Assembly: GCA_965224085.1 (NCBI GenBank)
Contig: CBDCYI010000005.1
Location: 288,001-352,000, forward strand
Reading direction: 5' to 3'
DNA length: 64,000 nucleotides
Source: Candidatus Marinacidobacterales bacterium
Lineage (GTDB): Bacteria > Acidobacteriota > Vicinamibacteria > Marinacidobacterales > SMYC01
The notes beneath the pieces are model-generated. The model was not told the DNA's origin, did no database searches, and saw only the letters and a program-made list of their open reading frames with translations. A program made the position numbers and the translations under genes. Position 1 is the stretch's first letter. Each line of letters opens with the position of its first letter. Shown piece after piece: positions 35,550 to 53,959 of this stretch.

Positions 35550-35686
35550 CCGAAAGCTCACACAGAATCGGTAGTAGAGCCAGACGGCGTGGCTGATGAT
35601 CTCGGGCGCAAATCGATATCCGTGGTAGCTCGGCGTGTCACTTTTCATCGGCCTAGTTTGCCAGACACGGCCTGAACTTGACAGCA
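35550..35686 (-). mobile_element. IS6-family remnant: left inverted repeat and first ~33 transposase codons
   Basis: MKSDTPSYHGYRFAPEIISHAVWLYYRFCVSFR is an IS6 transposase N-terminus; IR-like TGCTGTCAAGTT at 35675-35686. Confidence 0.85.
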
Positions 35687-35761
35687 ATGGCACCGCCCGC
35701 GTGGGCGGAGGTCATCGGGGAGTGACCGAAATCGTTCGTTCACTCGAAAGTACCTGTGCAG
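35685..35761 (+). mobile_element. Non-autonomous mini-element made of the left and right ends of the IS110 at 43094-44771
   Basis: 35675-35727 is a near-identical reverse complement of 44729-44781; 35740-35754 matches the IS110 right end 43097-43111 at 14/15. Confidence 0.75.
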
Positions 35762-39360: not shown

Positions 39361-39640
39361 ATGAGACGTCTTTTATTGATTCTCGCACGGATCGTTTTCC
39401 CGGTCATGGCAACGGCGCAGACGCGTCCCATGACCTACGAGGACATCCTCGGTGTCAAGCGCCCCGCCGACCCGCAAAATCTCCCCCGACGGATCCCGCA
39501 TGGCCTTCGTGGTGAGTGAGCGGGACCAGAAGGAGGACGTCTACAACGAGGACCTGTAGGTGGTCGCCGCTCCGGAAGGGAATCTGGTGAGGCTGACCTA
39601 TGCGCAGAAGAGAGATCACTATCCGAGGTGGAGCCCGGTG
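39361..39640 (+). pseudogene. N-terminal stub of S9 peptidase-like gene (frameshift, stop, truncated)
   Basis: GGAGG RBS; signal peptide, RPMTYEDIL, ISPDGSRMAFVV, in-frame TAG, PRWSP. Confidence 0.7.
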
Positions 39641-39879
39641 GGAGACACTCCTCAACCGCCTTGCCCTGTTTGCTCGAGTTCTGCTACGCTCACCCGGACT
39701 CAATCGGAGTGCACCGTCCCATCCCAGTGGGGAAATTTCGTGCGGACCGGGGCCGGACACGTTTGAATTTTCCTAATCCTAGTTTCGCCAGAAGGACACT
39801 AGCAAGCCTCCGCGTCGAACCGGCGATGCAAGGCTCACCAAGCCTGCTTATCTCTGTAAACAAACGTCTGGAGGAAGGC

Positions 39880-42800
39880 ATGAGAGGTGCAAGAGTATTT
39901 TTCTGGCGCTTGAACCTGGCTCTAGTGGTGACGGTCGGCCTGCTATGCAGCCCGAACCGGGCTCAGGCACAGCTCGTTGATGAAACTATTCTCGACAACC
40001 TTTTGTTGCGCTCCATCGGCCCCGCCGTCATGGGCGGACGCATCCATGACCTGGCCGTGGTGGAAGATCGTCCCTGGATCTTCTACATCGGTTCGGCTTC
40101 GGGAGGACTTTGGAAGACCACCAACAACGGAACCACCTGGGATCCAGTCTTTGACGATCAGGGGACTTCCTCGATCGGCGACCTCGCTCTCGCGCCTTCC
40201 GATCCCGAGATTGTCTGGGTGGGTACTGGAGAGCCCAATAACCGGCAAAGCTCGAGTTTCGGCGACGGGGTCTATAAGTCGACGGATGGCGGGAAGACCT
40301 GGAAGCACGTCGGCCTGCGCGACACCCATCACGTCGGACGCATCGTGATCCATCCCCAGGATCCCGACACCGTTTACGTCGCCGCTCTGGGACACCTGTG
40401 GGGACCCAACGAGGAGCGGGGCCTTTTCAAGACGACTGACGGGGGAAACACCTGGGAAAAGATCTTATATATCGATGAAGACACCGGAGTCGTCAACGTA
40501 GCCATGGACCCGGTGAATCCCCGGATTCTCTACGCCGCCGCGTACCAGCGACGGAGGACACCCTGGGGATTCAGTGGAGGGGGGCCGGGAAGCGGCCTCT
40601 ACAAGAGCTCCGACGGCGGGAAGACATGGAAGAAGTTGACCGAGGGCATTCCTGATGGCCCGACAGGCAGAATCGGTATCGATGTCTATCGCAGCGATCC
40701 CCGAATCCTCTATGCGCTGATAGAAAACCGTGAGGGAGGGGTTTTCCGATCGGAGGACCGGGGCGAAAGCTGGAAGAGGGTCAATGAGCTCAACCCCAGG
40801 CCCATGTACTACAGCCAGATATGGATTGATCCGAGCGACTCCCGGCACGTTTACGTGCTGGGCGGGCCCTTTTATGTTTCCGACGACGGCGGGAGGACGT
40901 TCGAGCAAAACACTGCCATGACGCCCACGTTCGATGTGGGAGTGCACGGCGACCACCATGTGCTGTGGATCGACCCCGCCAACGGCAAGCATCTTATCCT
41001 GGGGAGTGACGGCGGTCTCTACTTCTCCTGGGACAGGAGCCGCACCTGGGACAAGGTAAACAATTTGCCCATAGCCCAGTTCTACGCAGTGGGCGTCGAC
41101 ATGCAGAAGCCTTACTTCATCTACGGCGGTGCTCAAGACACTCACTCCTGGGGAGGGCCGAGTGCTACCCGGCACCACATTGGAATCATTAACTCCGACT
41201 GGGTTCAGATTGGCCCTGGCGACGGCATGTACCAGCAGGTAGACCCCGCCGATCCTAATATCATCTACACCGAGTCACAGGGAGGAGACATCGTTCGCCT
41301 CAACCATAAGACCGGGGATCGGAAAGACATCAAACCGCACCCCGGGGACGGCGAGTCGGAGTATCGGTTTCACTGGACTTCCCCCATCCTCATTTCCCCT
41401 CATGACCCGAAGACCGTCTATCTGGGCGGAAATCGGCTCTTCATCTCGAAGGACCGGGGAGAAACTTGGACGGCCACGGAGGATTTAACCCGGGCAGAGG
41501 AACGAGACAAGCTTCCCATCATGGGGGTAGTTCCCGACGAGACCACGCTCTCGCGGCATGACGGGGTGGCGGCCTGGGGTACCATCACCACCGTGGCCGA
41601 GTCTCCGCTGACTCCCGGCTTACTTTACGTGGGCACTGATGATGGCATTGTCCATGTGTCGCGGGATGGGGGTCGAACCTGGACTAGCCTGCAGGATAGG
41701 TTCGCCGGCGTGAATGAAGAAAGAGCTACGGTGAGCCGCGTCGTAGCCTCGCATGCCGAGCCGGGTAGAGGCTACGTCACATTCGACCGTCACCAGCTGG
41801 ATGACTTCTCCCCTTATGTCTTTACCACCGACGACTACGGGAACACCTGGAAGTCCATTGCCGGAAATCTGCCTCGGGTAGGTTGGGTTAATGTTCTCGC
41901 CGAGCATCCTCGAAACCCCAATCTTCTCTTCGTCGGTACGGAGACGGGGCTCTTCGTATCGCTGGATCGGGGCAACCGGTGGATTCGGCTTACAGGTAAC
42001 TTCCCGACCGTCCCGGTAGATGATCTCGTGATTCATCCCCGGGACAACGACCTCGTGGTGGGCACTCACGGCCGTTCCATCTACATCCTGGACGACCTCG
42101 CGCCGCTCGAACAGCTGAGTGAAGAGGTGCTGGCTTCGGAGGTCCACTTGTTTGACATCCGCCCAGCCATGGAGTTCGTGCTCGTCAAGCATGAAAGCTA
42201 CGGGGCCCAGCGGCAGTTCATCGGGGCAAACCCGCCTTTCGGCGCAGTCATCTCTTACTACCTGAAGTCGGAACCAGCGGGAGACGTCGAGCTTTCCATT
42301 GTCGACAGGAGCGGAAAGGCCCTTCGTGAGATCTCCGGGACAAAGCACTCGGGGGTAAATCGGGTGAGCTGGGACCTACGCCTTGCTGCTCCTGAAGGCG
42401 TTGACCAGGCGGTTGGCCCCCTTGTCCCCCCGGGACGCTACACGGTTCGGCTTAAGTTAGGTAAAAAGGAGCTGGCCAAACCGCTCGAGGTGGAGGCTGA
42501 CCCACTCTTTCCGGTCCCGGAGGAAGAGCAGGTTGCGCGCTACGAATTCCTCGTCACCGTGAACGGCTTACGCCAGACGATCCAGGAGGCCATCGATTCG
42601 ACAGAGGCAATTTCAGAACAGGTCCAAAGCCTTCTCGAGGGCACGCAGGGAGATCCTGAGGCACCGGAGGCTGTGATTTCGGCGGCTCGAACCATTGCCG
42701 AGGAATCGGAAAAGATCCGGCGCGCACTGGCGGGCGATGGTGTAGCACCGTTCTTCGCTGGACAGAGCCTGCGCTCGCGAGCAAACCGGCTCTTCACAAA

Positions 42801-43041
42801 CCTCGATGGTCGCGTCTTCTTCACTCCCTTCGGAAACGCTGTCCGTTACCCTCAGGGCACGCTGAGTGGGCCGACGCGCGTTCAGCGGGAGCGGCTGGCG
42901 TCGCTCACCCGGCAGCTGGACGAGCAGCTGGAGTTGCTGAACCGGCTTAGCCAAACCGCGGTTTCGGATCTAAACCGCCAGATGAACGAGGCGAACCTGT
43001 CCCATATCAAGGTGGGTGCACCGGTGCGCAGGCCGCGTTAG
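39880..43041 (+). CDS. VPS10/sortilin-like BNR (Asp-box) repeat glycosyl-hydrolase-like protein, paralog A1
   Basis: RSIGPAVMGGR, many S/TxDGGxTW Asp-boxes, VHGDHH, GAQD, GTHGRS; ATG 39880 behind GGAGG. Confidence 0.9.
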   Translation: MRGARVFFWRLNLALVVTVGLLCSPNRAQAQLVDETILDNLLLRSIGPAVMGGRIHDLAVVEDRPWIFYIGSASGGLWKTTNNGTTWDPVFDDQGTSSIGDLALAPSDPEIVWVGTGEPNNRQSSSFGDGVYKSTDGGKTWKHVGLRDTHHVGRIVIHPQDPDTVYVAALGHLWGPNEERGLFKTTDGGNTWEKILYIDEDTGVVNVAMDPVNPRILYAAAYQRRRTPWGFSGGGPGSGLYKSSDGGKTWKKLTEGIPDGPTGRIGIDVYRSDPRILYALIENREGGVFRSEDRGESWKRVNELNPRPMYYSQIWIDPSDSRHVYVLGGPFYVSDDGGRTFEQNTAMTPTFDVGVHGDHHVLWIDPANGKHLILGSDGGLYFSWDRSRTWDKVNNLPIAQFYAVGVDMQKPYFIYGGAQDTHSWGGPSATRHHIGIINSDWVQIGPGDGMYQQVDPADPNIIYTESQGGDIVRLNHKTGDRKDIKPHPGDGESEYRFHWTSPILISPHDPKTVYLGGNRLFISKDRGETWTATEDLTRAEERDKLPIMGVVPDETTLSRHDGVAAWGTITTVAESPLTPGLLYVGTDDGIVHVSRDGGRTWTSLQDRFAGVNEERATVSRVVASHAEPGRGYVTFDRHQLDDFSPYVFTTDDYGNTWKSIAGNLPRVGWVNVLAEHPRNPNLLFVGTETGLFVSLDRGNRWIRLTGNFPTVPVDDLVIHPRDNDLVVGTHGRSIYILDDLAPLEQLSEEVLASEVHLFDIRPAMEFVLVKHESYGAQRQFIGANPPFGAVISYYLKSEPAGDVELSIVDRSGKALREISGTKHSGVNRVSWDLRLAAPEGVDQAVGPLVPPGRYTVRLKLGKKELAKPLEVEADPLFPVPEEEQVARYEFLVTVNGLRQTIQEAIDSTEAISEQVQSLLEGTQGDPEAPEAVISAARTIAEESEKIRRALAGDGVAPFFAGQSLRSRANRLFTNLDGRVFFTPFGNAVRYPQGTLSGPTRVQRERLASLTRQLDEQLELLNRLSQTAVSDLNRQMNEANLSHIKVGAPVRRPR

Positions 43042-43133
43042 GTTAGGCCATAGCTGCTCCGCAACGTCGCCGAAACCTTCGTGTACTTCCGCTGACGGTA
43101 CTTTCGACTGACACTCCCGGCCGAAGGCATTTT

Positions 43134-44522
43134 TCATGATATGGATTGATCGGGAACGAGGCTGAAGCCGAGTCGGGTAGCTTTGCGTCGGAGATTACTC
43201 AGGAGGCGTTGCTGGTATTGCCTTTCATAGGCGTCCTGACCGAGCTCAATGAACTCCTCTCCAGTCGCAAGCATGCGGAAGTAGATGGTCGCTATTTTAC
43301 GGGCGGTAGCTGTGATGGCCTTTGGAGCACCTCGTCGCGATCGGATTCGTCGATAGAAAGCGCCGAGCGCGGTTTGGGTATTGCGGACAGCGCACGCGGC
43401 GAGGCGAAAGAGTTTTGCAGCACGACTGGAGCTCATTGGGGTTGCCCGGCGAAAGATTCGACCAGCGGACTCCTTATTATTCGGTGCGAGAGCTAGCCAT
43501 GAGGTGAAGTGCTTGTCACTTTTCCACGGGCTCATGTCGCAACCGGTTTCTCCTACGAGCTGCAGAACGGCATAGCTACCTAAGCCGGGAACCCTGGTTA
43601 GGTCCACCCCCGTGAGTCCCAATAGAGACTCAGCGAGCGGAAAGCGCGGCCCGTTGCCGCTACGCGCTCGCCGTGTCCGTGGTTTCGGCTTAGGCCGAGC
43701 GTCCTGAGGCCGGGTCTCCAATTTGGACAGGCATCTCTCGATCCGCTTGTCACAGTCTTCCATTTTCTCTTGATAGAAATCGTACAACTCCACCGACTGT
43801 TGAAGAGCGAAAACATGCTCGCTCCGATAGTTACCTTCTAAGGCTTTCGCGATCGTGGCCTCATCGTTGTGGCAACGTTCATGCCTCAGTTTTGCTAGGT
43901 CACGAGGATCTCGCTCTCCTCTCAAGATCGCTCGGATGATCGCAAGGCCGGTGACTCCGGTCACGTCGCGCAGGACGTGTTGTAGCTGGAGCCCCATTTG
44001 GTTGAGCGCTTTGTGCATATGCTGAATGTGGCGAGCCGCTGACTCCACCAGCGAGCTTCGTTGGCGGGTGTATGCCCTTAGCTCGCAAATCGCCGATTCC
44101 GGCCGAAAGGTTTTTGGGAGTAGCCCGAATGTATGCAGCTGTTGCAGCCACTCCGCATCCGACACGTCTGACTTGCGCCCAGATACGTTTTTCACTTTGC
44201 GAGCATCGACCAGATAGACTTCAAATCCCTCGTCTTCCAACAACTCGTACAGTGAAATCCAATAAACTCCGGTCGACTCCATCGCCACCGTGCACACGCC
44301 GCACGCCTTCAGCCAATTGGCCAGCTCTCGCAGCGAGCATACAAAGCTCTGAAACGTGCGGACATGTTCGCCCTCAGGAGTGCGCCCCTTCGGGACTGCC
44401 GCCACGATTGACTCCGCTCCAATATCAATCCCTGCAGCATCTAGATTTACCGTGTCGAGCTCGTGCTCCAATTTTTTCCGTCTTGCTTGACGACTGCTTT
44501 TTGTCCTGACGCGACGTGCCAT
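43134..44522 (-). CDS. IS110-family DEDD recombinase (transposase)
   Basis: AAGIDIG, AMESTGVYW, RKSDVSDA (DEDD); ESAG catalytic Ser motif; KAITATARK; AAGGAG RBS. Confidence 0.95.
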   Translation of the reverse strand: MARRVRTKSSRQARRKKLEHELDTVNLDAAGIDIGAESIVAAVPKGRTPEGEHVRTFQSFVCSLRELANWLKACGVCTVAMESTGVYWISLYELLEDEGFEVYLVDARKVKNVSGRKSDVSDAEWLQQLHTFGLLPKTFRPESAICELRAYTRQRSSLVESAARHIQHMHKALNQMGLQLQHVLRDVTGVTGLAIIRAILRGERDPRDLAKLRHERCHNDEATIAKALEGNYRSEHVFALQQSVELYDFYQEKMEDCDKRIERCLSKLETRPQDARPKPKPRTRRARSGNGPRFPLAESLLGLTGVDLTRVPGLGSYAVLQLVGETGCDMSPWKSDKHFTSWLALAPNNKESAGRIFRRATPMSSSRAAKLFRLAACAVRNTQTALGAFYRRIRSRRGAPKAITATARKIATIYFRMLATGEEFIELGQDAYERQYQQRLLSNLRRKATRLGFSLVPDQSIS

Positions 44523-44544
44523 TTCTCGCTCCTTTCGGCGCAAC

Positions 44545-44765
44545 CAGGAGAGAGGGGCGATTCAAAACATTCTTTCGAACGGGGTCATGCCTCGCGACAT
44601 GCCACCACGGATACTCCCGCTAACCCTCCAGACCTTGCTGTCAAACGGGCACTGAGCACCATCGTACCTTCGGCCTTGACTCCCGGCTGCACTCGATCGG
44701 AGTCTACTTCCTCCCACAGATCTCAAAGGGTCAGTCTCCGATTACCTTCGCCCGCCCGGGCGATG
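44545..44765 (-). ncRNA. Putative IS110 bridge RNA
   Basis: Structured leader (ATCGGAG...CTCCGAT stem; CCCG...CGGG stem) with loop TTGACAGCAA (44635-44644) identical to the flank at 44769-44778. Confidence 0.6.
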
Positions 44766-44846
44766 CCATTGCTGTCAAGTTGAGCTGGTGACTGACATGA
44801 GCATGAATAGCGTCGACCGATGATCGTCCGGCGCGACCTCCAGTAA

Positions 44847-44886
44847 GTCAATGGCGCGACAGGTTCTCGTCAATGGCGCGACAGGT
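44847..44886 (+). repeat. Perfect 18-bp direct repeat GTCAATGGCGCGACAGGT x2 (22-bp period)
   Basis: 44847-44864 and 44869-44886; a third partial GGCGCGAC at 44830-44837. Confidence 0.85.
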
Positions 44887-45082
44887 CCGGGTCTAGTCTG
44901 CGAGCCACTCGCCGGAAGATTGTTTCCGCTTTGGCAGATGCGGACTTGGCGAACCTGGCAAAGCGTAGAGGACGCTGGGAGAACGACTCGCAACGAGCGG
45001 AGAATGTCCTCAGCTTGAAGGACGAATTGAGTGGCAACGACCTCCTCCAGGGCAAGTTGTACGAGGTGACTGCCACCGGGGG

Positions 45083-45345
45083 CATGGACTCCCCACGCCG
45101 GATCAAGAGAAAACGTTCTTCGTAATAGTCATCCGCGATTCGCTTTTTTTGTGGGCCACCGGGAGGGGTCGTAAAGGGTTCCTTGTCGAAGCATCGCAAT
45201 GGCGATGGGGAGAATGCGGTCCATGACGCCTCTGAGAGCTCTGGCATGGCTGTGGCCTCTGTCACGAAGCCGGTCGTAGTGTTCTTTGAAGTGGGGGTCG
45301 TGCAAAACGGCAGTGCGTGCCCAATGGTGGAGAGCATTATTGAGG
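45083..45345 (-). mobile_element. Remnant of a second, different IS110-family element (transposase C-terminus and right end)
   Basis: NALHHWARTAVLHDP..YDRLRDRGHSHARALRGVMDR..AMLRQGTLYDP; terminal GTGGGGAGTCCAT. Confidence 0.7.
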
Positions 45346-45564
45346 GGCAAAGAGCGAGCTCTCCTTCATTTCCGCCAGCGCATGTGATGTTTCATCGGCC
45401 CCTGTACTGGCGCTCGAAGCGCAACTCCCCACTGGATGTCCATCACAAAAGAATTGCCGGCACGCATGTCCATTCCTGGCGCTAGGAGCGCAGGGCGACG
45501 TATGGCGTTGCCGGCAAGCTGCTGACGAAATCGAAAATAGTCCAAGCTCATCGTGATATTTGCT

Positions 45565-45981
45565 CTACCATGGCAATCGGAGTTGTCGCGCGATGCCACG
45601 AGTTCGTGCTCGGTTTTTTCTCGGTAGTTTCGGGCGAAGCACGTCCGAGAGTTTTTCTCGAATGTAAAGAACATAAGGCGGGTCTAGATATTGACTTTGC
45701 ACTTCCTGGAGCACAGGTGAAAAATAACGAAGGGAGCGAATGGGCTGCAGTGGCTCCTCATGTTCTTGTAGCTCCCTACGAGCGCAACCCAGAAGTAGGG
45801 CACACTCGAATTCGTGTAACGGGACTCCTTGGCGGTAGAGCTGCGTCGCGATGAAGCGGTCGTCGCGCCGTGGCCGCTCAGGTGTGTTCGGAATGGAAAG
45901 ATAGAGGTCCAAAATCGTCCGGACGTAATTGTTTTCTGTCAGAGCATCGCTCGTGAGCGGTTCATTACCCAGCTTCGACAT
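45565..45981 (-). CDS. Mobile-element-associated hypothetical protein
   Basis: YVRTILDLY..PNTP.RP..DRFIA..L...GVPL..ALLLG..RR..PIRSLRYF; overlaps the upstream Zn-finger gene; function unknown. Confidence 0.65.
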   Translation of the reverse strand: MSKLGNEPLTSDALTENNYVRTILDLYLSIPNTPERPRRDDRFIATQLYRQGVPLHEFECALLLGCARRELQEHEEPLQPIRSLRYFSPVLQEVQSQYLDPPYVLYIREKLSDVLRPKLPRKNRARTRGIARQLRLPW

Positions 45982-46378
45982 CCTTTAGCCTCCCGCGTCG
46001 GCCGCAGATACAGCATTTGGCATATCTGATACTGTCAATCTTCGTTTTCATTGAATGAGCCATCGGGCCACTAGCTTGAATTTCACGAACTCCTAGACTG
46101 CCAGAATTACTGGGGTGAATGAACCCTTGCTCCGTCACTATTTTCGCCGCCTGGCGTAGACGATAATTCTGTTGCCGAGCCGCGTGGAGTTTTCGTGAGT
46201 TGAAACCTTTCTGGTAATTTCGGTTATTTTCGCGCTGGTTCTCTCGCCGGGTTTCGTCACGGCAGGTTGGACCGCAGTAGCACTGTCCCTGGTAACATGA
46301 CTTGCAGATGAAGAAAGGCATCCCACAGCTTTTGTTGCGGCAGAAAAGCCGGAGAAGAACGACAGGTTTGGTGGCCAT
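45965..46378 (-). CDS. Cys-rich zinc-finger protein of the type seen in IS21-like/integrative elements
   Basis: C..C...FFICKSCYQGQCYCGPTCR...RENNRNYQ...HAARQQNYR and C-terminal CCICG; start uncertain. Confidence 0.65.
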   Translation of the reverse strand: MATKPVVLLRLFCRNKSCGMPFFICKSCYQGQCYCGPTCRDETRRENQRENNRNYQKGFNSRKLHAARQQNYRLRQAAKIVTEQGFIHPSNSGSLGVREIQASGPMAHSMKTKIDSIRYAKCCICGRRGRLKDVEAG

Positions 46379-50638: not shown

Positions 50639-53600
50639 ATGAGTGGTGCAAGAGTATTTTTCTGCTGCTTGAACCTGGCTCTAGTGGTGGCGGTCGGCCT
50701 GCTATGCAGCCCGAACCGGGCTCAGGCACAGCTCGTTGATGAAACTATTCTCGACAACCTTTTGTTGCGCTCCATCGGCCCCGCCGTCATGGGCGGACGC
50801 ATCCATGACCTGGCCGTGGTGGAAGATCGTCCCTGGATCTTCTACATCGGTTCGGCTTCGGGAGGACTTTGGAAGACCACCAACAACGGAACCACCTGGG
50901 ATCCAGTCTTTGACGATCAGGGGACTTCCTCGATCGGCGACCTCGCTCTCGCGCCTTCCGATCCCGAGATTGTCTGGGTGGGTACTGGAGAGCCCAATAA
51001 CCGGCAAAGCTCGAGTTTCGGCGACGGGGTCTATAAGTCGACGGATGGCGGGAAGACCTGGAAGCACGTCGGCCTGCGCGACACCCATCACGTCGGACGC
51101 ATCGTGATCCATCCCCAGGATCCCGACACCGTTTACGTCGCCGCTCTGGGACACCTGTGGGGACCCAACGAGGAGCGGGGCCTTTTCAAGACGACTGACG
51201 GGGGAAACACCTGGGAAAAGATCTTATATATCGATGAAGACACCGGAGTCGTCAACGTAGCCATGGACCCGGTGAATCCCCGGATTCTCTACGCCGCCGC
51301 GTACCAGCGACGGAGGACACCCTGGGGATTCAGTGGAGGGGGGCCGGGAAGCGGCCTCTACAAGAGCTCCGACGGCGGGAAGACATGGAAGAAGTTGACC
51401 GAGGGCATTCCTGATGGCCCGACAGGCAGAATCGGTATCGATGTCTATCGCAGCGATCCCCGAATCCTCTATGCGCTGATAGAAAACCGTGAGGGAGGGG
51501 TTTTCCGATCGGAGGACCGGGGCGAAAGCTGGAAGAGGGTCAATGAGCTCAACCCCAGGCCCATGTACTACAGCCAGATATGGATTGATCCGAGCGACTC
51601 CCGGCACGTTTACGTGCTGGGCGGGCCCTTTTATGTTTCCGACGACGACGGGACGACGTTCGAGCAAAACACTGCCATGACGCCCACGTACGGTGTGGGA
51701 GTGCACGGCGACCACCATGTGCTGTGGATCGACCCCGCCAACGCCGAGCATCTTATCCTGGGGGGTGACGGCGGTCTCTACTTCTCCTGGGACAGGAGCC
51801 GCACCTGGGACAAGGTAAACAATTTGCCCATAGCCCAGTTCTACGCAGTGGGCGTCGACATGCAGAAGCCTTACTTCATCTACGGCGGCGCTCAAGATAC
51901 TCACTCCTGGGGAGGGCCGAGTGCTACCCGGCACCACATTGGAATCATTAACTCCGACTGGGTTCAAATTGGCTGTTGCGACGGCATGTACCAGCGGGTA
52001 GACCCCACCGATCCTAATATCATCTACACCGAGTCACAGGGAGGAGACATCGTTCGCCTCAACCGTAAGACCGGGGATCGGAAAGATATCAAACCGCACC
52101 CCGGGGACGGCGAGTCGGAGTATCGGTTTCACTGGACTTCCCCCATCCTCATTTCCCCTCATGACCCGAAGACCGTCTATCTGGGCGGAAATCGGCTCTT
52201 CATCTCGAAGGACCGGGGAGAAACTTGGACGGCCACGGAGGATTTAACCCGGGCAGAGGAACGAGACAAGCTTCCCATCATGGGGGTAGTTCCCGACGAG
52301 ACCACGCTCTCGCGGCATGACGGGGTGGCGGCCTGGGGTACCATCACCACTGTGGCCGAGTCTCCGCTGACTCCCGGCTTACTTTACGTGGGCACTGATG
52401 ATGGCATTGTCCATGTGTCGCGGGATGGGGGTCGAACCTGGACTAGCCTGCAGGATAGGTTCGCCGGCGTGAATGAAGAAAGAGCTACGGTGAGCCGCGT
52501 CGTAGCCTCGCATGCCGAGCCGGGTAGAGGCTACGTCACATTCGACCGTCACCAGCTGGATGACTTCTCCCCTTATGTCTTTACCACCGACAACTACGGG
52601 AACACCTGGAAGTCCATTGCCGGAAATCTGCCTCGGGTAGGTTGGGTTAATGTTCTCGCCGAGCATCCTCGAAACCCCAATCTTCTCTTCGTCGGTACGG
52701 AGACGGGGCTCTTCGTATCGCTGGATCGGGGCAACCGGTGGATTCGGCTTACAGGTAACTTCCCGACCGTCCCGGTAGATGATCTCGTGATTCATCCCCG
52801 GGACAACGACCTCGTGGTGGGCACTCACGGCCGTTCCATCTACATCCTGGACGACCTCGCGCCGCTCGAACAGCTGAGTGAAGAGGTGCTGGCTTCGGAG
52901 GTCCACTTGTTTGACATCCGCCCCGCCATGGAGTTCGTGCTCTGGAAGCATGAAAGCTACGGGGGCCAGCAGCAGTTCATCGGGGCCAACCCGCCTTTCG
53001 GCGCAATCATCTCTTACTACCTGAAGTCGGAACCAGCGGGAGACATCGAGCTTTCCATTGTCGACAGGAGCGGAAAGGCCCTTCGTGAGATCTCCGGGAC
53101 AAAGCATTCGGGGGTAAATCGGGTGAGCTGGGACCTACGCCTTGCTGGCCCGGAACGGGCATTCTGGTTGACGTCGCCTGCTCCTGAAGGCGTTGAACAG
53201 GCGGGTGGCCCCCTTGTCCCCCCGGGACGCTACACGGTTCGGCTTAAGTTAGGTGAAAAGGAGCTGGCCAAACCGCTCGAGGTGGAGGCTGACCCACTCT
53301 TTCCGGTCCCGGAAGAAGAGCAAGTTGCGCGCTACGAATTCCTCGTCACCGTGAACGGCTTACGCCAGACGATCCAGGAGGCCATCGATTCGACAGAGGC
53401 AATTTCAAAACAGGTCCAAAGCCTTCTCGAGGGCACGGAGGGCAACCCTGAGGCACCGGAGGCTGTGATTTCAGCGGCTCGAACCATTGCCGAGGAATCG
53501 GAAAAGATCCGGCGCGCACTTGCGGGCCCGCGGGGTGATGGTACAGGAGCGTTCTTCGACAGACAGAGCCTGCGCTCGCGAGCAAGTCGGCTCTTCACAA

Positions 53601-53836
53601 ACCTTGATGGTCGCGTCTTCACTCCCTTCGGGCGAAACGCTGTCCGTCAGGGTACGCTGAGTGGGCCGACGCTCGTTCAGCGGGAGCGGCTGGCGTCGCT
53701 CACCCGGCAGCTGGACGAGCAGCTGGAGTCCCTGAACCGGCTTAGCCAAACCACGGTTTCGGATCTAGACCGCCAGATGAACGAGGCAAACCTGCCCCAT
53801 ATCAAGGTGGGTGCACCGGTGCGCAGGCCGCGTTAG
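50639..53836 (+). CDS. VPS10/BNR-repeat glycosyl-hydrolase-like protein, paralog A2
   Basis: Near-identical to 39880-43041; duplicated block 50587-53899 corresponds to 39828-43096. Confidence 0.92.
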   Translation: MSGARVFFCCLNLALVVAVGLLCSPNRAQAQLVDETILDNLLLRSIGPAVMGGRIHDLAVVEDRPWIFYIGSASGGLWKTTNNGTTWDPVFDDQGTSSIGDLALAPSDPEIVWVGTGEPNNRQSSSFGDGVYKSTDGGKTWKHVGLRDTHHVGRIVIHPQDPDTVYVAALGHLWGPNEERGLFKTTDGGNTWEKILYIDEDTGVVNVAMDPVNPRILYAAAYQRRRTPWGFSGGGPGSGLYKSSDGGKTWKKLTEGIPDGPTGRIGIDVYRSDPRILYALIENREGGVFRSEDRGESWKRVNELNPRPMYYSQIWIDPSDSRHVYVLGGPFYVSDDDGTTFEQNTAMTPTYGVGVHGDHHVLWIDPANAEHLILGGDGGLYFSWDRSRTWDKVNNLPIAQFYAVGVDMQKPYFIYGGAQDTHSWGGPSATRHHIGIINSDWVQIGCCDGMYQRVDPTDPNIIYTESQGGDIVRLNRKTGDRKDIKPHPGDGESEYRFHWTSPILISPHDPKTVYLGGNRLFISKDRGETWTATEDLTRAEERDKLPIMGVVPDETTLSRHDGVAAWGTITTVAESPLTPGLLYVGTDDGIVHVSRDGGRTWTSLQDRFAGVNEERATVSRVVASHAEPGRGYVTFDRHQLDDFSPYVFTTDNYGNTWKSIAGNLPRVGWVNVLAEHPRNPNLLFVGTETGLFVSLDRGNRWIRLTGNFPTVPVDDLVIHPRDNDLVVGTHGRSIYILDDLAPLEQLSEEVLASEVHLFDIRPAMEFVLWKHESYGGQQQFIGANPPFGAIISYYLKSEPAGDIELSIVDRSGKALREISGTKHSGVNRVSWDLRLAGPERAFWLTSPAPEGVEQAGGPLVPPGRYTVRLKLGEKELAKPLEVEADPLFPVPEEEQVARYEFLVTVNGLRQTIQEAIDSTEAISKQVQSLLEGTEGNPEAPEAVISAARTIAEESEKIRRALAGPRGDGTGAFFDRQSLRSRASRLFTNLDGRVFTPFGRNAVRQGTLSGPTLVQRERLASLTRQLDEQLESLNRLSQTTVSDLDRQMNEANLPHIKVGAPVRRPR

Positions 53837-53959
53837 CTTCGCCATCGATCGGTAACATGCTCCGCGACGTCGCCGAAACCTTCGTGTACTTCCGCTGACA
53901 GCAAAGGGGCCAGCCTCACAAAAGGGCGTGGGTCGCCGGTTGCCGAGGCTGGCCCCAAA

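What the first reader, a model, noticed from the sequence alone, without database searches (positions are those of the whole stretch)
43094..44781. IS110 with a readable bridge-RNA target guide pointing at IS6 inverted repeats
Seen: the recombinase has intact DEDD and SAG motifs. Its upstream leader has, inside a CCCG...CGGG stem, the 10-mer TTGACAGCAA (44635-44644), identical to the element's left junction (44769-44778). That junction, AACTTGACAGCA, is the same sequence as the end of the IS6 remnant at 35675-35686. The leader also has matches to the right end: ACTCCCGGC direct (43113/44679), and GACTGAC and GGCCGAAGG inverted. These are candidate donor-recognition segments. Established: IS110 elements such as IS621 use a bridge RNA with target and donor guides, and IS4321/IS5075 target Tn21 IRs. 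Inference: this is a long-type IS110 programmed to insert at IS6 ends.
Basis: partly seen in the sequence, partly recalled or inferred. Interest (0 to 1): 0.85.

Follow-up and report, generated by a model that had tools for sequence, protein, structure and literature searches.

The report
RNA-guided IS110 that targets IS6 ends
This is an intact IS110-type insertion sequence whose own guide RNA region spells out the last 14 bases of another mobile element's (IS6) terminal repeat, and every copy in the genome, including about twenty 66-base miniature derivatives, sits exactly there.

Summary
The element is a 1,671-bp IS110-family insertion sequence at window 43101-44771 (minus strand), not 43094-44781. 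Its transposase is intact, with 462 aa and the DEDD and Ser residues. Empty and occupied sites show that it inserts inside the left terminal repeat of IS6-family elements, GGTA^CTGTCAA, 4 bp from the tip, at a CT (sense AG) core. All 30 left ends and 33 of 34 right ends in the genome lie there.

The leader holds a bridge-RNA-like fold. It covaries with the left junction in 15 of 17 homologues, against 2 of 224 mismatched pairs. A 5' guide (GGUAC) reads the repeat tip. A second loop (44572-44579) reads the element's right end. The fourth guide was not found.

New here:
- The guide order is opposite to ISEc21/IS621, although the RNA lies upstream of the gene.
- There are conserved 6-10-bp subterminal inverted repeats.
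- There are 66-bp non-autonomous mini-elements (one at window 35685-35750), also abundant in sister genomes.
- A second, unrelated IS110 targets the other IS6 repeat.

Transcription and circle formation are unproven.

The parts
43101..44771 (-). IS110-family element ('IS110-A'), 1,671 bp counted with one copy of the core dinucleotide
   Evidence: There are 7 full copies at 99.8-100% identity in the genome. Limits come from empty versus occupied IS6 ends and from junction alignments.
43134..44522 (-). Transposase gene, 462 aa from the ATG, intact
   Evidence: Pfam PF01548 and PF02371. NCBIfam NF033542, 257.9 bits against a cut-off of 140. A profile hits IS621 transposase 8wt6_A at E 4.6e-15, with DEDD and Ser aligned.
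43097..43100 (+). Tip (GGTA) of the interrupted IS6-type terminal repeat; this is the right half of the target
   Evidence: TACC follows 33 of 34 right ends. A paralogue of the left flank diverges exactly here.
43101..43102 (-). Core dinucleotide at the right end (sense AG, + strand ct)
   Evidence: It is the only block shared by target (..GAC-AG-TACC) and donor (..GAA-AG-CAATGG) at the crossover.
43106..43112 (-). Right arm of the subterminal inverted repeat (sense GTCAGTC)
   Evidence: In 11 of 11 homologues an exact 6-10-nt inverted repeat sits at the same two places with different sequences.
44523..44771 (-). Left non-coding end, 249 nt, encoding the bridge-RNA-like leader
44570..44579 (-). 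3' guide of the second (donor) loop, sense UUCGAAAG (44572-79), plus two following bases AA (44570-71)
   Evidence: Bases 2-8 equal the element's right end TCGAAAG. The same relation holds, with at most 1 mismatch, in 13 of the 19 loci parsed. The pattern is CCG-N6-AG.
44583..44607 (-). Inner hairpin of the second loop
   Evidence: 5 of 7 pairs show compensatory changes among 13 homologues. A variant in run X14 changes both sides of the stem.
44631..44635 (-). 3' strand of the outer stem of the target loop (sense AGGUC)
   Evidence: Helix 1, alignment columns 140-144 with 184-188; 2 of 5 pairs are compensatory.
44636..44645 (-).
   Evidence: It is identical to the sense-strand left target plus core plus the first 2 nt of the element. 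Cognate 15 of 17 versus non-cognate 2 of 224.
44648..44661 (-). Inner hairpin of the target loop
   Evidence: Helix 2 is 100% paired; one pair switches GC to AU in 3 sequences.
44664..44670 (-). 5' guide of the target loop, sense AAGGUAC; GGUAC is complementary to sense G+TACC (core plus repeat tip)
   Evidence: Read by eye from the sequences, the same position is complementary to the right flank in L022, L026, L031, L062 and L021.
44671..44675 (-). 5' strand of the outer stem of the target loop (sense GGCCG)
44730..44736 (-). Left arm of the subterminal inverted repeat (sense GACTGAC)
   Evidence: The mini-element carries GAGTGA/TCACTC at the two equivalent places, a compensatory pair.
44749..44762 (-). 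First G+C-rich hairpin just inside the left end
   Evidence: It is present in the MFE and centroid folds. It is kept in the mini-element with a U-A to C-G change.
44772..44797 (+). Rest of the interrupted IS6-type terminal repeat (CTGTCAAGTTGAGCTGGTGACTGACA); 44772-73 is the core copy on the target side
   Evidence: It matches the IS6-A left repeat with 1 change. The next ~280 bases have no other copy in the genome.
35685..35750 (+). 66-bp mini-element: the left ~43 nt and right ~23 nt of an IS110-A relative, with no gene and no guide loops, inserted in the repeat of a truncated IS6
   Evidence: It is flanked by AACTTGACAG (35675-84) and TACC (35751-54).

Best explanation
Window 43101-44771 (minus strand) is an active-looking IS110-family insertion sequence, here called IS110-A. 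A DEDD/Ser recombinase is directed by a bridge (seek) RNA encoded in the 249-nt left end.

The RNA has two internal loops of one design: outer stem, 5' guide, inner hairpin UGGUG...CCCG, then a 3' guide of the form N6-AG followed by two more bases.

In the first loop the 3' guide UUUGACAG is identical to the sense strand of the left target plus core, so it pairs with the other strand. The next two bases (CA) match the first two bases of the element, like the IS621 handshake guide. The 5' guide GGUAC pairs with the sense strand of core-G plus TACC. Together they read 13-14 bp, which is exactly the outermost part of the left terminal inverted repeat of IS6-family elements (GGTA-CT-GTCAARTT).

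In the second loop the 3' guide UCGAAAG reads the element's own right end.

Recombination at the CT/AG core puts the element 4 bp inside the IS6 repeat without a target duplication. The other IS6 repeat (GGTA-TT-...) differs at the first core base and is never used.

Mini-elements of 66 bp keep only the donor ends, the first hairpin and the subterminal inverted repeat. They are most likely moved in trans.

Shown: anatomy, the insertion-site rule, covariation of three guides, conserved RNA helices. Inferred: that the leader acts as RNA, that recombination goes through an excised intermediate, that the core base causes the discrimination between the two repeats, and that the minis move in trans.
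For: Family: Pfam PF01548 and PF02371; NF033542 at 257.9 bits; catalytic D33/E82/D119/D122/S352 aligned to IS621.

Copies: 7 intact copies at 99.8-100%.

Site:
- Of 29 IS6-A left ends, 10 are empty and read ...TTGACAG-TACC|flank or a close variant.
- 18 carry an insert between G and TACC: 14 mini, 2 full, 2 partial.
- 1 is a hybrid.
- Genome-wide, 30 of 30 genuine left ends and 33 of 34 right ends obey the rule.
- The genome holds 10 unoccupied GGTACTGTCAA sites and 45 unoccupied GGTATTGTCAA sites.

Target identity: an 806-bp element whose 234-aa product scores NF033587 213.5 bits and PF13610 E 6.3e-38.

Guides:
- The pattern CCG-N6-AG-NN occurs twice, about 65 nt apart, in most homologous leaders, with different N6.
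- The first copy matches the left junction 115-145 nt upstream with 2 or fewer mismatches in 15 of 17 loci, against 2 of 224 non-cognate pairings.
- The second copy matches the right end with 1 or fewer mismatch in 13 of the 19 loci parsed.
- The handshake dinucleotide follows the element's first two bases (CA, TC, CT, CG, TT).

Structure: 97.5% of cells are paired, against 27-53% when partners are slid. 8 of 16 pairs are compensatory, and 0 of 500 shuffles reach the covariation score.

A second IS110 in the same genome (33% identical) has the same layout, CCCG-UUGUCAAG-UU-UGG.

Architecture matches the published IS621 scheme: guide, hairpin, then a guide ending in AG plus a 2-nt handshake (passages of PMC11208158; PMC13626964).
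Against: No direct proof of an RNA. Rfam has no match. The only RNA-library evidence is contigs from two runs of one study covering 44398-44686 and 44510-44705. The tool warns that such contigs may be DNA carry-over and cannot show ends.

No circle junction or empty-site joint was seen in the four runs laid.

No sigma-70-like promoter was found in the integrated copy or across the joined ends.

The fourth guide (5' side of the second loop against the element's left end) could not be found in any of 14 leaders. The donor loop is therefore only half read.

The single-sequence fold is only modestly better than shuffles (z -1.95; 5 of 200 fold as well).

The outer stem of the second loop was seen by eye only.

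Three of the 10 empty IS6-A left ends also carry the TT-type core. The 'core decides' statement therefore rests on association, and one occupied site has a right-repeat-like inner sequence.
Confidence: 0.85

Rival explanations
1. The repeated 10-mer and the second match are DNA-level features, such as recombinase-binding sites or relics of a duplicated end. On this view target choice is made by the protein, not by an RNA guide.
For: No transcript is proven. The element has conserved subterminal inverted repeats that look like protein or DNA-structure sites. The fourth guide is missing.
Against: The variable hexamers change with the flanks while their frame (CCG...AG) and the surrounding helices stay fixed. 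Those helices are kept by compensatory changes, as expected of an RNA. The layout matches the experimentally solved IS621 RNA. NCBIfam files the protein as an RNA-guided transposase.
Confidence: 0.05
2. The association runs the other way: IS6 elements insert next to IS110-A or mini ends, or the 66-bp unit is simply part of the IS6 end.
For: 14 of 29 IS6-A copies carry the mini, with identical junctions.
Against: Removing the insert rebuilds an uninterrupted IS6 repeat identical to that of empty copies, tip included. The same insert lies in at least 5 different repeat contexts, and in solo repeats without any IS6 body. The window copy has only a 30-bp repeat beside it.
Confidence: 0.02
3. This rival concerns the mini-elements only. 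They are not moved in trans by IS110-A. They spread passively, either carried by IS6 copies that still transpose with an interrupted repeat or by horizontal transfer of IS6::mini units. Alternatively they arise by recurrent internal deletion.
For: Sister genomes hold many minis but no cognate transposase with this query. G004 has 13 matches and no IS110-A-like protein at E 1e-30. G013 has 37 matches and only a 50%-identical relative with other guides. Minis are 98-100% identical across four genera.
Against: In G000 minis sit on at least 3 IS6-A haplotypes that differ by 3-4%, each with close empty relatives. Three mini variants share one IS6-A haplotype. They also sit in 4 other repeat contexts in G000 and in at least 5 in G004. 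Their ends fit the IS110-A donor guide and handshake. All share one internal junction, yet they are 12% diverged from the resident full element, which argues against recurrent deletion.
Confidence: 0.25

Closest known systems
IS621 / ISCro4 bridge recombinase systems (IS110 group)
   Same: A DEDD RuvC-like domain plus a Ser-bearing Tnp domain (profile hits to 8wt6_A at E 4.6e-15 and 9t56_A at E 2.4e-12). The RNA is encoded upstream of the gene. There are two internal loops, each made of guide, hairpin and guide. The 3' guides end in AG, pairing with a CT core, and are followed by a 2-nt handshake that matches the donor (passages). No target duplication.
   Different: The protein is remote: no phmmer hit, and 462 aa against 326-341 aa. 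The CT core lies on the strand antisense to the gene. The long 8-9-nt guide is on the 3' side and reads the left flank, while the short guide is on the 5' side and reads the right flank. This is the reverse of IS621 as described. Subterminal inverted repeats are 6-10 bp here, against the 2-3 bp reported for the IS110 group. No junction promoter was found.
ISEc21 (IS110-type, seekRNA shown experimentally; PMC11187229)
   Same: Upstream non-coding region with short matches to both target strands. Its natural target is another insertion sequence, a conserved stretch of IS3-family transposase genes (passage).
   Different: I read ISEc21 in E. coli record NZ_LT903847.1 (L111). There the segment like the sense left flank (CACAGCGAUC) lies 5' of the segment complementary to the sense right flank (CCCUGGAC). 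That order is the opposite of the order here. ISEc21 targets a coding region, not a terminal repeat.
IS4321 / IS5075 and other IS1111-type elements
   Same: They insert at one fixed position and orientation in the terminal inverted repeats of other transposons (Tn21 family; title in the reference lists). They have subterminal inverted repeats. In their seekRNAs the top-strand complement comes before the bottom-strand match (passage), as it does here.
   Different: In IS1111-type elements the RNA region is usually downstream of the gene and the transposases are 330-350 aa. Here it is upstream and the protein is 462 aa. I did not examine an IS1111-type sequence myself.
MITEPpu9 of ISPpu9 (PMC12288879)
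   Same: A non-autonomous unit flanked by the ends of an IS110-family element, found both beside the transposase gene and alone. It is proposed to move with transposase supplied in trans (passage).
   Different: MITEPpu9 carries an sRNA gene. The unit here is only 66 bp and carries no guide loops, only the donor ends, one hairpin and the subterminal repeat. The smallest active IS110 elements in preprint 10.64898/2026.08.14.744561 are about 800 bp (passage).

Membership tests
IS110 family (RNA-guided DEDD/Ser transposase elements) | Recombinase with a RuvC-like DEDD domain and a Tnp domain bearing the catalytic Ser | tested here: met
   PF01548 E 7e-25 and PF02371 E 2.3e-8. NF033542 257.9 bits against 140. 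D33, E82, D119, D122 and S352 align with the IS621 residues.
IS110 family (RNA-guided DEDD/Ser transposase elements) | Sequence-specific insertion at a short core shared by donor and target, with no target duplication and no terminal inverted repeats | tested here: met
   30 of 30 left ends and 33 of 34 right ends lie at one site. Only AG is shared at the crossover. Flanks beyond TACC are unrelated.
IS110 family (RNA-guided DEDD/Ser transposase elements) | Non-coding end encodes a structured RNA whose target loop covaries with the insertion site | tested here: met
   15 of 17 cognate against 2 of 224 non-cognate. Helices are 97.5% paired with 8 of 16 compensatory pairs.
IS110 family (RNA-guided DEDD/Ser transposase elements) | Donor loop with two guides reading both element ends | tested here: inconclusive
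   The 3' guide matches the right end (own 7 of 7; 13 of 19 loci at 1 or fewer mismatch). No 5' guide for the left end was found.
IS110 family (RNA-guided DEDD/Ser transposase elements) | Excised circular intermediate whose joined ends make a promoter for the RNA | tested here: inconclusive
   No joints in contigs of 4 runs. No sigma-70-type hexamer pair in the integrated or joined ends. The consensus used is E. coli-like, and only contigs, not reads, were available.
IS110 family (RNA-guided DEDD/Ser transposase elements) | The leader is transcribed and bound by the recombinase | not testable with these tools
   RNA-library contigs of two runs of one study overlap 44398-44705, but they may be DNA.
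IS110-type architecture as characterised (IS621, ISEc21) | RNA region upstream of the transposase gene | tested here: met
   249-nt left end against a 33-nt right end.
IS110-type architecture as characterised (IS621, ISEc21) | [quoted passage not shown] | tested here: not met
   Here the 5' guide is complementary to the sense right flank, the 3' guide is identical to the sense left flank, and the core reads AG on the sense strand. ISEc21 read here shows the opposite order. IS621 was judged from text only.
IS110-type architecture as characterised (IS621, ISEc21) | Subterminal inverted repeats absent or only 2-3 bp | tested here: not met
   Exact 6-10-nt repeats at fixed places in 11 of 11 homologues.
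IS1111-type architecture | RNA region downstream of the transposase gene | tested here: not met
   The right end is 33 nt, and both guide loops lie upstream of the gene.
IS1111-type architecture | Subterminal inverted repeats of 7-17 bp | tested here: met
   7 bp here and 6-10 bp in homologues. This is at the low end of the published range.
IS1111-type architecture | [quoted passage not shown] | tested here: met
   The criterion is taken from PMC11187229. No IS1111-type sequence was examined here.
IS1111-type architecture | Compact transposase of 330-350 aa related over its full length to that of IS1111 | tested here: not met
   462 aa. Relatedness to the IS1111 transposase itself was not tested.
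IS6 family (the target element) | About 0.8 kb, a single DDE transposase of the IS6/IS240 type, and short terminal inverted repeats starting with GG | tested here: met
   806 bp and 234 aa. NF033587 213.5 bits against 125; PF13610 E 6.3e-38. The repeats are GGTACTGTCAAATTGAG and GGTATTGTCAAGTTGAC.
MITE-like non-autonomous derivative (the 66-bp units) | No coding capacity, ends shared with an autonomous element, and many copies at different loci | tested here: met
   20 left ends and 22 right ends of mini type in G000. At least 7 independent contexts. 6-37 matches in five sister genomes. Actual mobilisation was not tested.

The most novel reading that the evidence does not exclude
This element stands for a large clade of long (about 460 aa) IS110 transposases; more than 8,000 relatives were scored. 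Its bridge-RNA layout fits neither described type. The RNA lies upstream of the gene, as in IS621/ISEc21. However, the guide order, the strand polarity and the 6-10-bp subterminal inverted repeats are those of IS1111-type elements. The gene-plus-RNA cassette is therefore inverted relative to the recombination site.

Its 66-bp trans-mobilised derivatives define the minimal natural donor. They are too short to bend into a double-stranded circle. This would be natural evidence that these elements move through a single-stranded circle or by direct strand transfer, as two recent preprints propose for IS621 and CazIS110-1 (abstracts read).
Probability: 0.35. Interest if true: 0.75.

Novelty: new variant of a known kind. 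Interest (0 to 1): 0.55.

Why it matters
It is a naturally replicated specificity experiment for a bridge-RNA recombinase. More than 30 insertions in one genome lie at a 14-bp site, and 45 near-identical sites that differ at one core base are untouched. A second, unrelated IS110 takes exactly the other repeat of the same IS6 element.

The guide architecture differs from the two types studied so far, which widens the design space for programmable recombinases. It also cautions against annotating guides by the IS621 rule.

The 66-bp mini-elements mark out which cis sequences suffice as a donor. They also bear on the open question of whether the intermediate is cut-out double-stranded or copy-out single-stranded.

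Biologically it shows insertion sequences parasitising each other's ends, probably disabling the IS6 left repeat, in sponge-associated Acidobacteriota-like genomes that are full of mobile DNA.

Tried and rejected
Rfam (4,227 families) gave no match at E <= 1 over 42800-45200.

A single-sequence phmmer search against the PDB found nothing at E <= 0.01. Only the 12-sequence profile reached IS621.

Fourth guide. I searched 14 leaders for 5-8-mers complementary to core plus left end. No consistent position emerged. I then searched 11 leaders for 6-9-mers, identical or complementary to the joined ends. The only hint was that the 5' strand of the second loop equals right-end bases -19..-13 in the window copy and -17..-12 in L031, that is 2 of 11. 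I rejected this as chance.

My first idea was that GCCGAAGGUAC (44664-74) is a donor guide resembling the right junction. I dropped it once the conserved second CCG-N6-AG block was found.

Promoters and terminators: 0 found against 0.6 and 1.8 expected. My own hexamer scan of the integrated and joined ends printed nothing.

Read laying showed no joints. Parts of the element without cover in the RNA-library contigs (43698-44397 and 44706-44771) say nothing. No raw reads were available, so starts, ends and strand cannot be told.

Pfam found nothing in three neighbouring ORFs (45132-45350, 44873-45337, 45568-45981). My by-eye guess that one was an IS110 C-terminal relic is withdrawn.

IS6 target duplications: I compared the flanks of the IS6-A copies by eye and saw no 8-bp duplications. 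This test therefore could not tell whether IS6::mini units move as a whole.

Structure prediction, complex prediction, the search of protein representatives and the protein-atlas search were not used, because the family assignment was already clear.

Literature. Searches found no paper describing an upstream-RNA IS110 with reversed guide order, an IS110 aimed at IS6 repeats, or an IS110-derived element under about 800 bp. Figures and supplements (for example Durrant et al. Fig. 6d, Extended Data Fig. 10c and Supplementary Tables 1 and 5, and the seekRNA paper's Supplementary Fig. 2) could not be seen and may already show this layout.

What I saw of each paper:
- PMC11208158: passages.
- PMC11208160: passages and section 12.
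- PMC13626964: passages including the abstract.
- PMC11187229: passages and section 6.
- PMC12288879: passages.
- 10.64898/2026.08.14.744561: abstract and passages.
- 10.64898/2026.08.31.748434 and 10.1101/2025.10.25.684509: abstracts and outlines only.


Full report
WHAT IS THERE.

The minus strand of window 43134-44522 encodes a 462-aa protein with the two Pfam domains of IS110 transposases: PF01548 at E 7e-25 and PF02371 at E 2.3e-8. NCBIfam files it as an 'IS110 family RNA-guided transposase' (NF033542, 257.9 bits against a cut-off of 140). The protein alone finds no solved structure. A profile of 12 relatives finds the IS621 transposase (8wt6_A, E 4.6e-15) and the ISCro4 transposase. That alignment places D33, E82, D119, D122 and S352 (in S-A-G) on the IS621 catalytic residues. 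The family is very large: 8,000 of 8,000 scored candidates passed E 0.001.

COPIES AND LIMITS.

The window's genome (G000; 6.87 Mb in 12 contigs) holds 7 full copies at 99.8-100% identity, plus fragments. All 7 have an intact ORF. On the sense strand every copy begins ...AA[C/T/G]TTGACAG-CAATGGCATC... and ends ...GTCAGTCGAAAG-TACC, followed by unrelated DNA.

The true limits come from an 806-bp IS6-family element, here called IS6-A. It encodes a 234-aa transposase (NF033587 213.5 bits against 125; PF13610 E 6.3e-38). I examined 29 of its left ends:
- 10 are empty. Six read ...CTCAATTTGACAG-TACC|flank. Three have GACAAT in place of GACAG. One reads TTTTACAG.
- 18 carry an insert between ...GACAG and TACC: 14 minis, 2 full elements and 2 partial minis.
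- 1 is a hybrid.

The IS6-A repeats are GGTACTGTCAAATTGAG (left) and GGTATTGTCAAGTTGAC (right). The insert therefore lies inside the left repeat, 4 bp from its tip. At the crossover the only block shared by target and donor is AG on the sense strand, which is CT on the repeat's strand. In window coordinates the element is 43101-44771 (1,671 bp with one core copy), not 43094-44781.

SITE RULE GENOME-WIDE.

A loose pattern for the left end gave 41 hits. Thirty are genuine, 10 of full type and 20 of mini type. All 30 follow AA[C/T/G]TTGACAG. The other 11 hits lack the element sequence and are chance hits of a pattern that allowed 5 mismatches.

Of 34 right ends, 33 are followed by TACC and one degenerate copy by CACC. 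The flanks further left fall into several classes: the IS6-A left repeat, repeats of at least three other IS6-type elements, and solo repeats.

The genome still holds 10 intact GGTACTGTCAA sites and 45 intact GGTATTGTCAA sites. The T variant, which is the right-repeat type, changes the first core base. No junction shows it, although one occupied site has a right-repeat-like inner sequence, so rare use with core correction cannot be excluded.

THE LEADER.

The 249-nt left end contains the pattern CCG-N6-AG-NN twice, 66 nt apart:
- CCCG-UUUGACAG-CA at window 44636-44648 (sense);
- CCCG-UUCGAAAG-AA at 44570-44582.

The first block is identical to the sense strand of left target + core + the first two bases of the element. 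Bases 2-8 of the second block are identical to the element's right end.

I fetched 53 homologous loci at 39-59% protein identity, mostly Acidobacteriota and Dehalococcoidia metagenome-assembled genomes. For three multi-copy sets I fixed the limits by comparing copies. Those elements sit in a REP-like repeat, TGTCATCCTG-AG|CGCAGCG. They again have AG at the crossover, and their first block reads AUCCUGAG-CA or UUUCUGAG-UC, matching their own flank and their own first two bases.

Across 17 loci the first block matches a 10-mer 115-145 nt upstream with 0-2 mismatches in 15 cases. Guides paired with the wrong locus do so in 2 of 224 cases. The two failures, L023 and L058, have 4 mismatches. L023 and L025 are flanked on the left by what looks like another copy's right end.

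The second block matches a site within about 110 nt downstream of the ORF, with at most 1 mismatch (usually its conserved first U), in 13 of the 19 loci parsed. Several of the remainder are cut by contig ends, and for L031 and L044 the script picked the wrong block.

The seven bases before the conserved AYUGGUG of the first loop are complementary to the sense strand of core-G plus right flank. In the window copy this is GGUAC against G+TACC. By eye, I saw the same in L022, L026, L031, L062 and L021 with 0-2 mismatches. It did not hold in L051 or L054.

The two guides of the first loop thus read AYTTGAC-AG-TACC, which is exactly the outermost 13-14 bp of the IS6 repeat and no further. This fits the fact that DNA beyond the tip varies.

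STRUCTURE.

An alignment of 13 leaders (A1) gives three consensus helices:
- an outer stem closing the first loop;
- an inner hairpin between its two guides;
- the inner hairpin of the second loop.

On these 16 pairs, 97.5% of cells pair, against 27-53% when partners are slid by 1-3 columns. Eight pairs have compensatory changes, and 0 of 500 shuffles reach the covariation score.

In a metagenome run (X14) a variant of the second hairpin changes five bases and keeps the stem: CAUGUC/GGCAUG becomes CAUGUU/AACAUG (my reading of its table 3).

The single-sequence fold is unremarkable (z -1.95). The outer stem of the second loop was seen only by eye. The fourth guide, which should read the element's left end, was not found.

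COMPARISON WITH KNOWN BRIDGE RNAs.

The published IS621 RNA has, in each loop, a 5' guide pairing with the bottom strand on the left of the core and a 3' guide pairing with the top strand on the right. The 3' guide includes the CT core and is followed by a 2-nt handshake guide that pairs with positions 6-7 of the other DNA after strand exchange. The LT-RD junction is the left half, at the RNA-encoding end (passages).

Here the RNA design is the same: the 3' guides end in AG and a handshake matches the donor. But the DNA strand that carries CT is antisense to the gene. As a result the 3' guide reads the left flank and the 5' guide the right flank.

I checked a real IS110-type element whose seekRNA has been tested, ISEc21, in E. 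coli record NZ_LT903847.1. Its leader has the left-flank-like segment 5' of the right-flank complement. This agrees with its paper and is the opposite of the order here. That paper states that IS1111-type seekRNAs have the reverse order, and that IS1111-type elements usually carry the RNA region downstream and have subterminal inverted repeats.

The present clade does have such repeats. In 11 of 11 homologues an exact 6-10-nt inverted repeat lies at left-end positions 33-48 and ends 4-6 nt before the right end, with different sequences in different elements.

The layout is therefore a mixture: upstream RNA as in the IS110 type, with the polarity and subterminal repeats of the IS1111 type. A second IS110 in the same genome shares it (see below). 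I found no description of this mixture in four literature searches. However, I could not see the figures or supplements where it might be drawn.

MINI-ELEMENTS.

The 'solo' matches are 66-bp units. They consist of about 43 nt of left end (88% identical to the full element: first hairpin and left repeat arm) joined to about 23 nt of right end (right repeat arm and TCGAAAG). They have no gene and no guide loops. One lies in the window at 35685-35750, inside the repeat of a truncated IS6.

The hairpin and the subterminal repeat of the minis differ from the full element by compensatory changes. The hairpin has U-A changed to C-G. The repeat is GACTGAC/GTCAGTC in the full element and GAGTGA/TCACTC in the minis.

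G000 has 20 mini left ends and 22 mini right ends. They sit on at least three IS6-A haplotypes that differ by 3-4% and have close empty relatives. Three mini variants share one IS6-A haplotype. They also sit in four other repeat contexts. Independent insertion is therefore the simplest reading. Their ends fit the donor guide and the handshake of IS110-A.

Five sister genomes from four genera hold 6-37 matches that are 98-100% identical. Cognate full elements are rare there:
- one 99%-identical copy in G018;
- a fragment in G017;
- none at E 1e-30 in G004;
- only a partial 50%-identical match in G006;
- only 50%-identical relatives with different guides in G013.

In G004 the 13 loci fetched show at least five contexts. 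How the minis multiplied there is unexplained. Loss of the partner, horizontal transfer, or hitch-hiking on IS6 all remain possible.

A 66-bp duplex is too short to circularise easily; this is my own reasoning. Two preprints report single-stranded circles or direct strand transfer for IS110 elements (abstracts). The minis would fit that, but this is inference only. A MITE-like partner of an IS110-family element is known (MITEPpu9). The smallest active elements reported are about 800 bp.

A SECOND IS110 ON THE SAME REPEAT.

IS110-B is 1,491 bp, encodes a 405-aa transposase 33% identical to IS110-A, and has about 9 copies. It inserts at GGTATTGTCA-AG|TTGACG, in the opposite orientation. Its leader reads CCCG-UUGUCAAG-UU-UGG.

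In IS6-A the left repeat has CT at positions 5-6 but AA at positions 11-12. The right repeat has TT at 5-6 and AG at 11-12. Each IS110 can therefore use only one of the two repeats. Nested cases exist, GGTA[mini]CTGTCAAG[IS110-B], at G000 C9:15151 and C9:19402.

EXPRESSION AND INTERMEDIATES.

Twenty public runs from 9 studies hold the element. In the four runs laid, all as contigs, no circle or empty-site joint was seen. Contigs from two RNA libraries of one study (labelled sponge metagenome) overlap 44398-44686 and 44510-44705. The tool warns that these may be DNA. No sigma-70-like promoter was found. Transcription, RNA ends and the nature of the intermediate therefore remain untested.

VERDICT.

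The finding is real and its reading is essentially correct. Its limits needed correction, as did the stem and the proposed donor segments. It belongs to a known kind of system, bridge/seek-RNA-guided IS110 elements. Elements of that kind that live in other mobile elements are already known (ISEc21 in IS3 genes; IS4321/IS5075 in Tn21 repeats).

What lifts it above routine:
- the mixed architecture, shared by a very large clade;
- the 66-bp minimal donors;
- the clean natural specificity data.

Noticed in passing
G000 C4:27887-29377 and about 8 other places; nested cases at C9:13661-15222 (L076) and C9:19331-20705: A second IS110-family element, IS110-B: 1,491 bp, 405-aa transposase, 33% identical to IS110-A. 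It inserts in the same IS6-type repeat 6 bp further in (GGTATTGTCA-AG|TTGACG), in the opposite orientation, with its own matching guide UUGUCAAG-UU. Mini-elements and IS110-B can occupy one repeat together.
   Followed up: partly
G000 C4:1694568-1695363 (IS6-A copy, left end): This IS6-A end reads ...CTCAAT-TCGAAAG-TACC. The last 7 bases before the tip are the right end of IS110-A or the mini instead of TTGACAG. It looks like a footprint of an excision shifted by a few bases, or of recombination between the similar left-target and left-donor heptamers (TTGACAG and TCGAAAG share 5 of 7).
   Followed up: no
window 44790-44796, compared with 43106-43112 and 44730-44736: The IS6-A left repeat itself contains GTCAGTC (8-mer TGTCAGTC). 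This is the same sequence as the right arm of IS110-A's subterminal inverted repeat. The mini lineage has a different arm. Whether this is chance or capture of target sequence is unknown.
   Followed up: no
window 44590-44596 and 44564, in run X14: A population variant carries five substitutions and a 1-base deletion in the second-loop hairpin. The substitutions keep the stem paired.
   Followed up: partly
window 42386-43096 and 53178-53899: The 3' part of the large ORF 39628-43041 and the DNA after it are duplicated about 10 kb downstream at 91% identity. The paralogue diverges exactly where the IS6-type repeat tip (GGTA, 43097) begins.
   Followed up: partly
window 45077-46200: This stretch belongs to other multi-copy repeats. 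Bases 45366-46200 occur 5 more times at 100% identity, and 45077-45369 occurs 6 or more times at 99%. They are probably further mobile elements and were not identified. Three ORFs here have no Pfam match.
   Followed up: partly
G000 C4:27639-27835 and more than 25 other places: An unrelated repeat of about 197 bp, at 98-100% identity, is scattered over all large contigs. It was seen because one copy lies beside an IS110-B copy. It is probably another miniature element.
   Followed up: no
L023 and L025 (Dehalococcoidia MAGs), left and right junctions: Some homologues are flanked by what looks like the right end of a related copy (gttaGTCGGGAG|CA...). This suggests tandem or head-to-tail arrays of IS110 elements.
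   Followed up: no
G004, G013, G017, G018, G006 (sister genomes): The 66-bp mini-element is 98-100% identical across four genera, with 6-37 matches per genome. Cognate full-length elements are absent or rare there.
   Followed up: partly
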